DNA of 35,451 nt from positions 1 through 35,451 of the IMG/VR virus record IMGVR_UViG_2740892422_000002, one strand, 5' to 3'. Position 1 is the stretch's first letter. The number at the start of each line of letters is the position of its first letter. The notes under the pieces were generated by a model that worked only from the letters and a program-made list of their open reading frames with translations, had not been told where the DNA came from and searched no databases. A program made the position numbers and the translations under genes. The DNA comes from a virus (taxonomy: Duplodnaviria > Heunggongvirae > Uroviricota > Caudoviricetes). Below, one piece after another: positions 18,567 through 18,779 of this stretch.

Positions 18567-18615
18567 GTCAGTCTCCGTCGTTTGGGGTTACCGACGGTCA
18601 GTATGCGGAAGGCAG

Positions 18616-18639
18616 AAAAAAAGCCGGATTTACCGGCTT
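18616..18639 (-). terminator. Rho-independent terminator-like hairpin with U-tract (copy B of a duplicated element)
   Basis: Minus strand reads AAGCCGG-TAAAT-CCGGCTT followed by TTTTT; a 26-nt string identical to 26339..26364. Confidence 0.6.
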
Positions 18640-18779
18640 CACTGAAAACGGGGAAATACCCCCTTCAAAACCCCTTCAAAAACGCCACAGCATCTTCAAA
18701 AACGTCAGAATGCACATTCACGCCATCAGAATAAAAAACGCGTTTCTGATGCGTTTCAGGGGGATTTACGGCGGGAGGG

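What the first reader, a model, noticed from the sequence alone, without database searches (positions are those of the whole stretch)
18567..18779. 213-bp central non-coding region between F and I with phased repeats; candidate late promoter and strong gyrase site
No ORF fits between F (ends 18780) and I (starts 18566). The region holds three CTTCAAAA(ACG) direct repeats (18663..18670, 18674..18684, 18694..18704) spaced about one and two helical turns apart, an 8-bp inverted repeat CATCAGAA/TTCTGATG (18724..18751), the terminator copy, and a short hairpin overlapping the I ribosome-binding site. In Mu the equivalent central interval contains gene G, the I late promoter and the strong gyrase-binding site needed for replicative transposition. 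Here no G-like ORF is present at that position but a structured non-coding block of similar location is kept.
Basis: partly seen in the sequence, partly recalled or inferred. Interest (0 to 1): 0.6.

Follow-up and report, generated by a model that had tools for sequence, protein, structure and literature searches.

The report
Mu-like central gyrase site, late promoter
The 213-bp gap between two head genes of this E. coli Mu-like prophage matches phage Mu's central control region, with a phased-repeat block that corresponds to the key arm of Mu's strong gyrase site followed by an activator-dependent late promoter, so it is a new example of a known kind of element.

Summary
The window is a 35.3-kb Mu-like prophage inserted in flhA, with its genes on the minus strand. 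The F–I gap (18567–18779) has no credible ORF.

Read on the minus strand, the gap contains, in order:
- A weak hairpin.
- Three TTTT(T)GAAG repeats spaced 20 and 11 bp apart.
- A small hairpin.
- A hairpin followed by seven T's.
- The hexamer CATACT.
- A hairpin that overlaps the I ribosome-binding site.

The "terminator copy" is 27/29 identical to the Mor-binding box and terminator of Mu's middle promoter Pm. It lies 22 nt upstream of a -10 hexamer that aligns with the -10 of Mu's P_I. The prophage encodes a Mor 63% identical to Mu Mor and has no C homologue. The 3' part of the gap is therefore a Mor-type late promoter for I, and a twin sits upstream of lys.

[quoted passage not shown] A Mu-type prophage in E. 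coli SE11 has Mu's cut-site sequence followed by 46 nt that are 96% identical to this block. The 20/11 spacing recurs upstream of gene I in distant Mu-like phages.

Gyrase activity is inferred, not shown, and my motif scans were not discriminating.

The parts
18780..18782 (-). Stop codon (TAA) of the F-like head morphogenesis gene. It marks the upstream edge of the non-coding block.
   Evidence: The gene matches Pfam Phage_Mu_F.
18724..18751 (-). Inverted repeat CATCAGAA/TTCTGATG enclosing the palindrome AAACGCGTTT (18736-18745) and a run of six T's. It may be a weak terminator for the lys-F transcript, and it lies in the predicted left arm of the gyrase site. It resembles CATCAGAAAACGCGT at the 3' end of Mu gene G.
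   Evidence: The stem is broken without compensation in some close relatives (L010, L012), so structural selection on it is weak.
18715..18720 (-). Predicted gyrase cleavage centre, with a 4-nt stagger at about GAAT (18719-18716). The position comes only from lining up with Mu and SE11.
   Evidence: The Mu cut site is annotated at 17879/17880. SE11 has AATC + 13 nt + TTTTTGAAG. The A/T-versus-G/C correlation with the Topo-Seq consensus peaks at offsets 0 to +2 from this alignment. This stretch is the most variable part of the gap among close relatives.
18657..18702 (-). Three phased repeats: TTTTTGAAG at 18702-18694 and 18682-18674, and TTTTGAAG at 18670-18663, spaced 20 and 11 bp apart. This block corresponds to the Mu SGS right arm and is the candidate arm that wraps the GyrA C-terminal domain (T-segment arm).
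   Evidence: 46 nt are 95.7% identical to the G-I gap of the Mu-type prophage in E. coli SE11. The same cassette sits upstream of I in L047, L056 and L057. The 20/11 spacing is shared with Mu, L022, L023, L058 and L060-62. The repeat cores do not vary in 18 distinct close relatives.
18645..18663 (-). Hairpin GGGGGTATTTCCCC followed by GTTTT. It provides the fourth and fifth phased A/T patches, may act as a weak terminator, and supplies an A/T-rich stretch just upstream of the Mor box. It occupies the place of the TransTermHP terminator inside the Mu SGS right arm.
   Evidence: terminator-like hit at 18663-18650; Mu terminator at 17908-17953.
18628..18643 (-). Mor-type activator box AGTGA-AGCCGG-TAAAT. 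It would span positions -51 to -36 of the predicted P_I.
   Evidence: It lies within a 29-nt stretch that is 27/29 identical to Mu 9172-9200, which includes the Pm Mor site at 9173-9188. The pattern gives 5 matches with 3 or fewer mismatches against 0.2 expected. The box is kept in L022, L023 and L073 even where the terminator's 3' arm is lost. The Pm dyad geometry is described in PMC4390567 and PMC4287176.
18616..18640 (-). Intrinsic terminator hairpin GAAGCCGG-TAAAT-CCGGCTT plus seven T's, overlapping the Mor box. It should stop transcripts coming from the lys-F operon. The T-run fills the -35 region of P_I.
   Evidence: The same arrangement is annotated in Mu, with terminator 9179-9200 inside Pm 9163-9233. 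The sub-threshold Rfam sroD hit (22 bits against a gathering score of 50) aligns mainly on this hairpin.
18600..18605 (-). Predicted -10 hexamer CATACT of P_I, 22 nt downstream of the box. The predicted transcription start is at about 18591-18594.
   Evidence: Its geometry is identical to Mu Pm (box + 22 nt + TATCCT). It aligns with CAAACT of the annotated Mu P_I and with CACACT in SE11, L022 and L023. No sigma-70 -35/-10 pair was found in 17500-19800, as expected for an activator-dependent promoter.
18575..18597 (-). Inverted repeat CCGTCG...CGACGG. The 5' arm starts 2 nt after the -10 hexamer, and the 3' arm overlaps the ribosome-binding site GGAG (18576-18573).
   Evidence: -9.7 kcal/mol. 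Hairpins with different sequences occupy the same position in Mu, SE11, Sp18, L022 and L023, and also at Mu Pm, Mu Plys and the window's P_lys.
18564..18566 (-). ATG start codon of gene I (Mu-like protease/scaffold).
   Evidence: The protein matches Pfam Mu-like_Pro.
26323..26366 (-). Twin promoter/terminator module upstream of the endolysin gene: box AATGAAGCCGGTAAAT (26366-26351), the same hairpin and seven T's, 22 nt, then CACCAT (26328-26323). It is the predicted Mor-dependent P_lys.
26879..27280 (-). The mor gene, encoding the activator predicted to act on the box in the F-I gap.
   Evidence: It matches Pfam Mor at E 6.6e-30. It is 63% identical to Mu Mor, with a nearly identical C-terminal helix-turn-helix stretch (TVYQAIKRMRR against TVYKAIRRMRR), and only 32% identical to Mu C. 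The 165-aa ORF downstream of it is not C-like.

Best explanation
The gap is this prophage's version of phage Mu's central G-I control region, compacted because the G gene has moved elsewhere. Two functions sit side by side in it.

**1. Candidate gyrase site (about 18652-18782).**
- This 130-bp stretch carries A/T patches phased about every 10.5 bp on both sides of a predicted cut near 18717.
- The downstream arm is the three TTTT(T)GAAG repeats plus two further A/T patches.
- By analogy with Mu, this arm wraps the GyrA C-terminal domain and supplies the T-segment. Gyrase would then supercoil the prophage processively from near its middle and help bring the two ends together for replicative transposition.

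**2. Mor-dependent late promoter for I (18643-18567).**
- A Mor dimer binds AGTGAAGCCGGTAAAT at about -43.5, in place of a -35 element.
- RNA polymerase uses CATACT as the -10 hexamer and starts transcription near 18593.
- The same DNA forms a hairpin plus seven T's in RNA, so it also terminates transcripts arriving from the lys-F operon.
- The inverted repeat that begins right after the -10 hexamer can fold only in read-through transcripts. It would then hide the I ribosome-binding site, so that I is translated only from transcripts started at P_I.

**What is shown and what is inferred.**
- Shown: the sequence features, their correspondence to annotated Mu elements, the cognate Mor gene, and conservation in relatives.
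- Inferred: gyrase binding and cleavage, Mor dependence, the transcription start site, and occlusion of the ribosome-binding site.
For: **Identity of the element**
- The window is 100% identical to a prophage inserted in flhA of E. coli ETEC1732. It has Mu-type ends and a 5-bp target duplication (GCTAT) and is 35,259 bp long.
- Up to 3-4 copies occur per genome, which fits active transposition.

**Promoter**
- The hairpin region is 27/29 identical to Mu 9172-9200.
- That stretch lies inside the annotated Mor-activated Pm (9163-9233) and its predicted terminator (9179-9200). A published primer confirms that the Pm fragment starts at nt 9163 with this sequence (PMC9239132).
- The box, 22-nt spacer and -10 geometry equal those of Mu Pm.
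- The -10 hexamer and leader align with the annotated Mu P_I.
- The phage's Mor is 63% identical to Mu Mor and only 32% identical to C, and no C homologue is present.
- A second copy sits in front of lys.
- Relatives at 60% I-protein identity keep the box and the -10 hexamer but lose the terminator's 3' arm.

**Gyrase site**
- Mu's cut site (17879/80) lies in the same place, between the upstream gene and P_I.
- The SE11 Mu-type prophage has Mu's ATAAAATCA cut-site sequence followed by 46 nt that are 96% identical to window 18702-18657.
- The 20/11-bp spacing is shared by Mu, L022, L023, L058 and L060-62.
- The repeat cores do not vary in 18 close relatives, while the spacers and the cut region do vary.
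- All ten periodic A/T patches of the Topo-Seq gyrase consensus are matched when the sequence is aligned by homology, and the correlation peaks at that alignment, as it does for Mu.
- A/T periodicity over 60-bp spans is in the top 0.2-0.4% of the window.
- The Mu right arm is the functionally essential arm (PMC13284261 and PMC6379681, citing Oram 2006).
- The predicted 130-bp footprint fits between the F stop codon and the Mor box.

**Leader hairpin**
- Nine of ten Mor/C-type promoters examined have one at the same position.
Against:
- The published position matrix (table DS10 of PMC6379681) was truncated in the stored file.
- My proxies were not discriminating:
  - Consensus-based scans did not rank even the Mu SGS first in Mu.
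  - The window site ranks only in the top 0.6% by A/T-versus-G/C correlation, with 138 peaks as good or better.
- Profiles built from TTTAAAC-type arms without SE11 do not find the window block significantly (E = 0.068 and E = 3.6). Direct pairwise similarity to Mu is marginal (58 of 2000 shuffles score as well).
- The cut site and left arm are not conserved in sequence.
- The site is at 45% of the prophage, about 1.7 kb from the exact centre.
- From memory of Oram & Pato 2004: several Mu-like prophage candidates were cleaved by gyrase but did not support Mu replication.
- In L047 and L056 the cassette lies 25 nt from the I start codon, downstream of a late-activator gene, with no room for a promoter between them. 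The cassette and the promoter are therefore separable, and the cassette's role could concern I expression rather than gyrase.
- The transcription start is predicted from the -10 hexamer only.
Confidence: 0.62

Rival explanations
1. The gap is only transcription punctuation. It would consist of stacked terminators for the lys-F operon plus the Mor-dependent promoter for I. The phased T-tract repeats would serve as curved or UP-like DNA that boosts P_I, or as part of the termination region, with no special relationship to gyrase.
For: - Three terminator-like hairpins with T-runs lie in the gap.
- In Mu, a predicted terminator lies inside the SGS right arm.
- Mu Pm uses an A/T-rich UP-like subsite just upstream of the Mor site (PMC4390567).
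- My gyrase-motif proxies were not distinctive.
Against: - The block corresponds in position to the arm that is experimentally essential for the Mu SGS (PMC13284261).
- It is joined to a Mu-type cut-site sequence in SE11.
- In L047 and L056 the same cassette has no promoter downstream of it, so it is not simply an upstream promoter element.
- The repeats themselves are not hairpin stems.
Confidence: 0.22
2. The three repeats are an array of binding sites for a sequence-specific protein, either phage-encoded or a host nucleoid or response-regulator-type protein. This protein would act on I expression or on prophage architecture, and gyrase would not be the main reader of the repeats.
For: - The units are more alike within a lineage than between lineages: TTTTGAAG three times here, and TTAAACG three times in L023.
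- A 46-nt cassette stays about 90-96% identical in three otherwise unrelated contexts.
- The spacing is exactly 20/11 bp in very distant phages.
- This is more sequence constraint than bendability alone would seem to need.
Against: - No candidate protein is known.
- Lineages differ in the unit sequence (GAAG against AAAC), so a conserved host protein would have to tolerate the difference.
- Mu's arm has been explained experimentally by gyrase wrapping.
- Sutormin et al. found no known protein motif under gyrase sites (PMC6379681).
Confidence: 0.1
3. The gap encodes a small RNA of about 90 nt that ends at the 18616 terminator.
For: - There is an Rfam sroD hit at 18615-18703 on the - strand (22.1 bits, E 0.025-0.06).
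- The whole gap folds better than shuffled versions (z = -2.4).
Against: - The hit is far below the gathering score of 50, and its alignment rests mainly on the terminator hairpin and U-run.
- No sigma-70-like promoter was found.
- The hairpin is explained by its match to Mu Pm.
Confidence: 0.03
4. The upstream half of the gap is a decaying remnant left when gene G was lost from this position, with no present function.
For: - CATCAGAAACGCGT resembles the 3' end of Mu G (CATCAGAAAACGCGT).
- The inverted repeat there is not maintained by compensatory changes.
- The region next to the F stop codon and the predicted cut region are the most variable.
Against: - The repeat block is invariant among close relatives and is conserved in layout across distant phages.
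- A remnant origin for the left part does not exclude its use as a gyrase left arm, which in Mu also lies in the 3' end of G.
Confidence: 0.03

Closest known systems
Phage Mu strong gyrase site (SGS), Mu 17812-17944, cut at 17879/80
   Same: - It lies just upstream of the I late promoter and near the middle of a transposable prophage.
- The right arm has A/T tracts at the same 20/11-bp spacing.
- A terminator-like hairpin is embedded at the distal end of that arm.
- About 130 bp carry phased A/T patches on both sides.
   Different: - The unit sequence is TTTTGAAG rather than TTTTTAAA(C).
- The cut site and left arm are not conserved.
- The left arm is non-coding here, because G has moved away, whereas in Mu it lies in the 3' end of G.
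- The site is at 45% rather than 49% of the genome.
- No biochemical or genetic data exist for this allele.
Mu middle promoter Pm with the overlapping terminator after mor (Mu 9163-9233)
   Same: - The 16-bp Mor box is nearly identical, and the overlapping hairpin plus seven T's is the same (27/29 over 29 nt).
- There are 22 nt to a weak -10 hexamer and no -35 element.
- A hairpin starts right after the -10 hexamer.
- The cognate Mor protein is 63% identical.
   Different: Here the module drives late genes (I, and a twin drives lys) rather than a middle operon that encodes C. The phage therefore appears to run a two-step cascade without C.
Mu late promoter P_I (C-dependent, Mu 17977-18043)
   Same: It occupies the same genomic position. 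The -10 hexamer, discriminator and leader correspond (CCGCAAACTGAC against CCGCATACTGAC), and a hairpin covers the I ribosome-binding site.
   Different: The activator box is Mor-type rather than C-type (the C site has the half-site CATAAC 23 nt upstream of the -10). Mu P_I has no strong hairpin plus T-run overlapping its box.
Central G-I sequence of prophage Sp18 (E. coli O157:H7 Sakai). From memory of Oram & Pato 2004, it substituted for the Mu SGS.
   Same: It is a Mu-like prophage with a non-coding gap upstream of I at 47% of its length. It has phased T-tract/AA units 11 bp apart and a leader hairpin over the ribosome-binding site.
   Different: The sequence differs, with no blastn match to the window. 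G is present, and the activator box is not Mor-type.
Plasmid gyrase sites (pSC101 par, pBR322) and the Topo-Seq 130-bp gyrase motif
   Same: GC content varies with a period of about 10.75 bp in two arms that flank a central cleavage region (PMC6379681). The window sequence matches the A/T phase on both arms.
   Different: These sites are not tied to transposition or to a central position. A quantitative score could not be computed here.

Membership tests
Mu-type strong gyrase site (SGS) | Lies near the centre of a transposable (Mu-like) prophage, in the non-coding stretch upstream of gene I | tested here: met
   The prophage is 35,259 bp long, with Mu-type ends and a 5-bp target duplication. 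The predicted centre at window 18717 is at 45% of the length. Mu's is at 48.7% and Sp18's at about 47%.
Mu-type strong gyrase site (SGS) | Right arm with an extended set of phased (about 10.5 bp) anisotropic bending signals, corresponding to the Mu right arm | tested here: met
   Five A/T patches lie at +18, +38, +50, +61 and +70 from the predicted centre. The 20/11 spacing equals Mu's. The 46-nt block replaces the Mu right arm in the SE11 Mu-type prophage.
Mu-type strong gyrase site (SGS) | High score against the Topo-Seq gyrase motif, ranking as the top site within the phage genome | tested here: inconclusive
   The position matrix (DS10) was not available. Consensus-based proxies failed calibration on Mu. 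The A/T-versus-G/C correlation is 0.256 (top 0.6% of the window) against 0.317 for the Mu SGS (top 0.07% of Mu).
Mu-type strong gyrase site (SGS) | A single strong gyrase cleavage site, highly processive supercoiling, and a requirement for timely replicative transposition | not testable with these tools
   This needs cleavage mapping, supercoiling assays and replacement of the SGS in a prophage.
Mor/C-family activator-dependent promoter (Pm type) | 16-bp imperfect dyad (two 5-bp arms and a GC-rich 6-bp spacer) centred at about -43.5, with a recognisable -10 hexamer and no -35 hexamer | tested here: met
   AGTGA-AGCCGG-TAAAT (18643-18628), then 22 nt, then CATACT. The geometry is the same as Mu Pm (PMC4390567, PMC4287176). 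No sigma-70 -35/-10 pair was found. The dyad is less symmetric than Mu's.
Mor/C-family activator-dependent promoter (Pm type) | A cognate activator is encoded by the same phage | tested here: met
   Mor is at 26879-27280 (Pfam Mor, E 6.6e-30). It is 63% identical to Mu Mor, with a nearly identical C-terminal helix-turn-helix stretch.
Mor/C-family activator-dependent promoter (Pm type) | Transcription depends on the activator, and the start site lies about 7 nt after the -10 hexamer | not testable with these tools
   This needs reporter fusions with and without Mor, and 5' end mapping.
Intrinsic (rho-independent) terminator | GC-rich stem-loop followed directly by a T-run on the transcribed strand | tested here: met
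   The stem is at 18640-18620 (8 pairs, 5 of them G-C, with a 5-nt loop), followed by seven T's. The identical element is predicted as a terminator in Mu by TransTermHP. Function was not tested.
sroD small RNA (Rfam RF00370) | Score at or above the family gathering threshold | tested here: not met
   The score is 22.1 bits against a gathering score of 50, and the alignment rests mainly on the terminator hairpin.

The most novel reading that the evidence does not exclude
The three-repeat block may be a discrete, horizontally exchanged cassette of about 46 bp.
- Its exact 20/11-bp layout is conserved upstream of gene I, from enterobacterial Mu-like phages to GC-rich proteobacterial ones.
- Its units are homogenised within each lineage.
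- This would mean the SGS "right arm" is read in a sequence-specific way, either by gyrase or by a partner not yet identified, rather than only through bendability.

Alongside it, Mor/C-type promoters may share a built-in translational insulator. This is a hairpin whose 5' arm spans the transcription start. Only read-through transcripts can fold it, and it then hides the ribosome-binding site or start codon of the first gene.
Probability: 0.2. Interest if true: 0.6.

Novelty: new member of a known kind. Interest (0 to 1): 0.35.

Why it matters
- **A natural variant of the Mu SGS arm.** Mu's central gyrase site is the best-studied strong gyrase site, and its right arm is the part that matters. 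This prophage family occurs in about 1% of complete E. coli genomes. It offers a natural variant arm (TTTTGAAG units) that also occurs grafted onto a Mu-type cut site in SE11. That gives a ready-made allelic series for asking what gyrase reads in the arm.
- **A shorter regulatory cascade.** A close Mu relative appears to run late genes directly from Mor-type promoters, without C.
- **Annotation.** The gap should be labelled as a regulatory region, not searched for a missing gene.

Tried and rejected
1. **Gyrase consensus scan.** I scanned Mu and the window with the 133-bp Topo-Seq consensus, using exact-base and A/T-versus-G/C matching. The Mu SGS was not among the top sites in Mu, so the proxy fails calibration and was not used as evidence.
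2. **A/T periodicity.** Sliding Fourier power at periods of 10-11 bp puts both the Mu SGS and the window site in upper percentiles, but neither is unique. The strongest signal in the window is the hairpin after gene T.
3. **Published matrix.** Table DS10 of PMC6379681 was truncated in the stored supplement. Rebuilding a matrix from raw site lists was judged too costly.
4. **nhmmer profiles.** Profiles of right arms from other lineages, built without SE11, put the gap second at E = 0.068, or 15th in the hit list at E = 3.6 on the opposite strand, and so were not significant.
5. **Pairwise alignment to Mu.** Local alignment of the gap to the Mu G-I gap under strict scoring was marginal, with 58 of 2000 shuffles scoring as well.
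6. **Small RNA.** The sroD hit is sub-threshold and driven mainly by the terminator hairpin.
7. **Hidden small gene.** There is no credible ORF.
8. **The gap after gene T (16621-16701) as the true central gyrase site.** Mu has the same TTAAAAGGC hairpin after T, so this is a conserved terminator.
9. **A C-type activator in the 165-aa ORF after mor.** It shows no similarity to C, Pfam or PHROGs.
10. **Representative-genome scans.** They found nothing, or one Brenneria locus.
11. **Key primary papers.** Oram & Pato 2004, Oram 2006 and Margolin 1989 are not held. What I say about them is from memory or from papers that cite them.
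Full report
**What the window is.** The region around the finding is 100% identical to a prophage in E. coli ETEC1732. Close copies occur in 49 of 5,426 complete E. coli genomes, with up to 3-4 copies per genome. RefSeq annotation shows a Mu-like gene order on the minus strand: repressor, transposase, B, gam, mor, lysis genes, terminase, portal, F, I, T, tail genes, com/mom. 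The prophage has Mu-type ends (TGTATTGATTCAC... and ...GCCGCTTCA) and a 5-bp target duplication (GCTAT) in flhA. It is 35,259 bp long, and the window lacks its last 623 bp. F is at 18780-19544 and I at 17604-18566. The G homologue lies after T at 15330-15872.

**Checking the observation.**
- TTTTGAAG occurs four times in the window on both strands, three of them within 42 bp here, against about 1.5 expected for the whole window.
- A regex for the three-unit layout at 20/11-bp spacing hits once in the window and never in 300 shuffles.
- No credible ORF lies in the gap.

**Layout on the coding (minus) strand.**
- F stop codon (18782-18780).
- Inverted repeat CATCAGAA/TTCTGATG around the palindrome AAACGCGTTT and a run of six T's (18751-18724).
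- A variable 20-bp stretch.
- TTTTTGAAG, TTTTTGAAG and TTTTGAAG (18702-18663).
- GGGGGTATTTCCCC followed by GTTTT (18663-18645).
- AGTGAAGCCGGTAAATCCGGC followed by seven T's (18643-18616).
- 10 nt, then CATACT (18605-18600).
- Hairpin CCGTCG...CGACGG running into GGAG (18597-18573).
- ATG of I (18566).

**The promoter.** I scanned the whole Mu genome with the gap. The only outstanding match (score 48 against a background of 19 ± 3.6) was the hairpin region against Mu 9172-9200, at 27/29 identity. A second copy lies in the window upstream of the endolysin gene.
- The curated Mu record places that Mu stretch inside the Mor-activated middle promoter Pm (9163-9233), which also contains a predicted terminator at 9179-9200.
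- The literature describes the Mor site as two 5-bp inverted repeats with a GC-rich 6-bp spacer, spanning -51 to -36 (PMC4390567, PMC4287176). That fits AGTAA-AGCCGG-TTAAT at Mu 9173-9188, followed by 22 nt and TATCCT.
- The window has AGTGA-AGCCGG-TAAAT, 22 nt, then CATACT. The lys copy has AATGA-AGCCGG-TAAAT, 22 nt, then CACCAT.
- CATACT and the bases around it align with CAAACT in the annotated C-dependent P_I of Mu, and with CACACT in SE11, L022 and L023.
- The phage's only Mor/C-family protein is 63% identical to Mu Mor, with a nearly identical C-terminal helix-turn-helix stretch, and 32% identical to C. The ORF after it is unrelated to C.
- Relatives with 60% I-protein identity keep the box and the -10 hexamer but have lost the 3' arm and T-run of the hairpin. 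The box is therefore conserved for its own sake.

I conclude with high confidence (about 0.85) that 18643-18567 is a Mor-type late promoter for I that doubles as a terminator for the upstream operon. The phage appears to skip the C step of Mu's cascade.

**The gyrase site.** In Mu the gyrase cut (17879/80) lies 20 bp after the G stop codon. The right arm runs to about 17960 and contains a predicted terminator, and P_I follows.
- A pairwise alignment places the window's three repeats on Mu's TTTTTTAAAA, ATTTTTAAA and TATTTAA with the same spacing. On its own this is marginal.
- The decisive link is a Mu-type prophage in E. coli SE11. It has gene sizes identical to Mu and a G-I gap, and a near-identical copy of it in strain TUM9757 is 86% identical to Mu over this region. 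Its gap keeps Mu's ATAAAATCA cut-site sequence and then carries 46 nt that are 95.7% identical to window 18702-18657. The window's block therefore serves there as an alternative version of the Mu right arm.
- The same cassette sits 25 nt upstream of I in a third, lower-GC phage type, where the upstream gene is a late activator.
- Related units (TTAAAC-type) with exactly 20 and 11 bp between them occur upstream of I in L022, L023, L058 and the GC-rich L060-62. The latter even share Mu's AAACGCGCC-ACGG spacer. Sp18 has units 11 bp apart.
- Among 18 distinct close relatives the repeat cores and the Mor box do not vary, while the spacers and the predicted cut region do.
- Lining the sequence up with SE11 and Mu predicts a cut centred near 18717. 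At that alignment the A/T patches fall at about -50, -40, -30 and -18 and at +18, +38, +50, +61 and +70. This matches every periodic patch of the Topo-Seq consensus, and the correlation peaks at offsets 0 to +2, just as it does for Mu.
- A 130-bp footprint would fill the space between the F stop codon and the Mor box.

**Limits of the gyrase evidence.**
- The published position matrix was not retrievable.
- Consensus-based scans failed calibration on Mu.
- The A/T-versus-G/C correlation puts the site only in the top 0.6% of the window.
- Profiles built without SE11 do not detect the block significantly.
- The site is at 45% of the prophage, not at the exact centre.
- From memory of Oram & Pato 2004 (not held), only the Sp18 sequence substituted well for the Mu SGS among five prophage candidates.

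I therefore rate "corresponds to the Mu SGS right arm" at about 0.85 and "functions as a strong gyrase site" at about 0.55.

**The hairpin over the ribosome-binding site.**
- The inverted repeat starts 2 nt after the -10 hexamer and ends in the Shine-Dalgarno sequence.
- Hairpins of unrelated sequence and similar strength (-8 to -10.6 kcal/mol) occupy the same position at P_I of Mu, SE11, Sp18, L022 and L023. They also occur at the window's P_lys, Mu Plys and Mu Pm, but not at Pmom.
- For Pm, the annotated promoter limits place the start at about 9224-9225, immediately after the 5' arm (9217-9223).
- The transcript started at each promoter should therefore lack the 5' arm, and only read-through RNA could fold and hide the ribosome-binding site or start codon.
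- This is an inference. I found no mention of it in the papers I could search.

**Rivals.**
- A purely transcriptional role for the repeats is possible, but it fits poorly with the cassette's presence where no promoter follows it.
- A sequence-specific binding protein cannot be excluded, and the within-lineage similarity of the units hints at it.
- A small RNA is rejected.
- The gap after T, which shows the strongest A/T periodicity and lies at 51% of the prophage, is a terminator hairpin shared with Mu.

**Verdict.** The element is a new member of known kinds: a Mu-type central gyrase-site region joined to a Mor-type promoter/terminator. The variant features are the missing G gene, a Mor box in place of a C box, and TTTTGAAG units in the arm. 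Interest is modest. The most useful follow-ups are gyrase cleavage mapping and Mor-dependent reporter assays.

Noticed in passing
window 26323-26366 (- strand): A twin of the Mor-box, hairpin and T7 module lies upstream of the endolysin gene: AATGAAGCCGGTAAAT, 22 nt, then CACCAT. An 8-bp hairpin (GAAGCAGA/TCTGCTTC) follows, starting right after the -10 hexamer. This is the predicted Mor-dependent P_lys. The phage has Mor but no C homologue, which implies a two-step early-to-late cascade.
   Followed up: partly
window 18575-18597 and 26290-26322; Mu (L003) 9217-9247, 10450-10486, 18026-18049: Nine of ten Mor/C-type promoters examined have an inverted repeat whose 5' arm begins 0-2 nt after the -10 hexamer and whose 3' arm covers the ribosome-binding site or start codon of the first gene. 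Only read-through transcripts could form it, which suggests translational insulation of each operon. I did not find this in the literature I could search.
   Followed up: partly
window 7650-7717 (- strand), inside the baseplate V gene: A third candidate Mor box, AGGGAAAACGGTAAAT (3 mismatches), is followed after 22 nt by ATATTAT, and the flanking gtttc resembles the other two boxes. It may be the counterpart of Mu's P_P tail promoter.
   Followed up: no
window 16621-16701 (- strand): The 81-bp gap after the major head gene T holds a long hairpin, GCAGTTAAAAGGC...GCCCTTTTAACTGC, plus the palindrome CTGCCTTTTAAAAGGCAG. It gives the strongest 11-bp A/T periodicity in the window and lies at 51% of the prophage. 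Mu has the same TTAAAAGGC hairpin after T, so it is most likely a conserved terminator or attenuator after the capsid gene.
   Followed up: yes
L047 1999-2042; L056 9770-10003; L057: The same three-repeat cassette of about 45 nt lies 25 nt upstream of an I-type protease gene in a lower-GC element. There the upstream gene is a Mor/C-family late activator (phrog_532), and no large terminase or portal ORF appears in the 10 kb upstream. The nature of this element is unclear; it may be a different phage type or a satellite.
   Followed up: partly
L060-L062, about 130-170 nt upstream of the I homologue: GC-rich, distant Mu-like phages (I protein about 43% identical to the L047 type) carry AAACGCGCCCCACGGCC-TTTAAAC-CATC-TTTAAAA. 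This has the same 20/11 spacing as Mu's AAAACGCGCCACGGGA-TTTTTAAAC-CGGT-ATTTAAC and a similar spacer. That is deeper sequence conservation than bendability alone would predict.
   Followed up: partly
window 34626-35451 and L001 1-1077, 36327-36710: The prophage interrupts the flagellar export gene flhA, with a 5-bp target duplication (GCTAT). Window 34636-35451 is host flhA/flhB DNA, so the lysogen is probably non-motile.
   Followed up: partly
window 5938-5967 (- strand), inside the YmfQ-family baseplate gene: GGATTTAAACCGTTTTTTAAGGG is the best nhmmer hit in the window for the TTTAAAC-type right-arm profile (E = 0.0055). It lies in coding sequence at 81% of the prophage and is probably chance.
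   Followed up: no
window 8076-9147 and 12319-12713 (- strand): RefSeq marks the baseplate assembly gene and the tail assembly gene of the identical prophage as frameshifted. The tail assembly case may be the usual programmed frameshift of tail chaperones. The baseplate case may be a real defect.
   Followed up: no
window 324-446 (- strand), upstream of com: The region upstream of com/mom has a cluster of GATC sites (GATCGATAACATCATATCGATCG), reminiscent of the Dam/OxyR control region of Mu mom. A TGATTAAAT element lies about 30 nt from TTATTA, which is not the Mor-box geometry.
   Followed up: no
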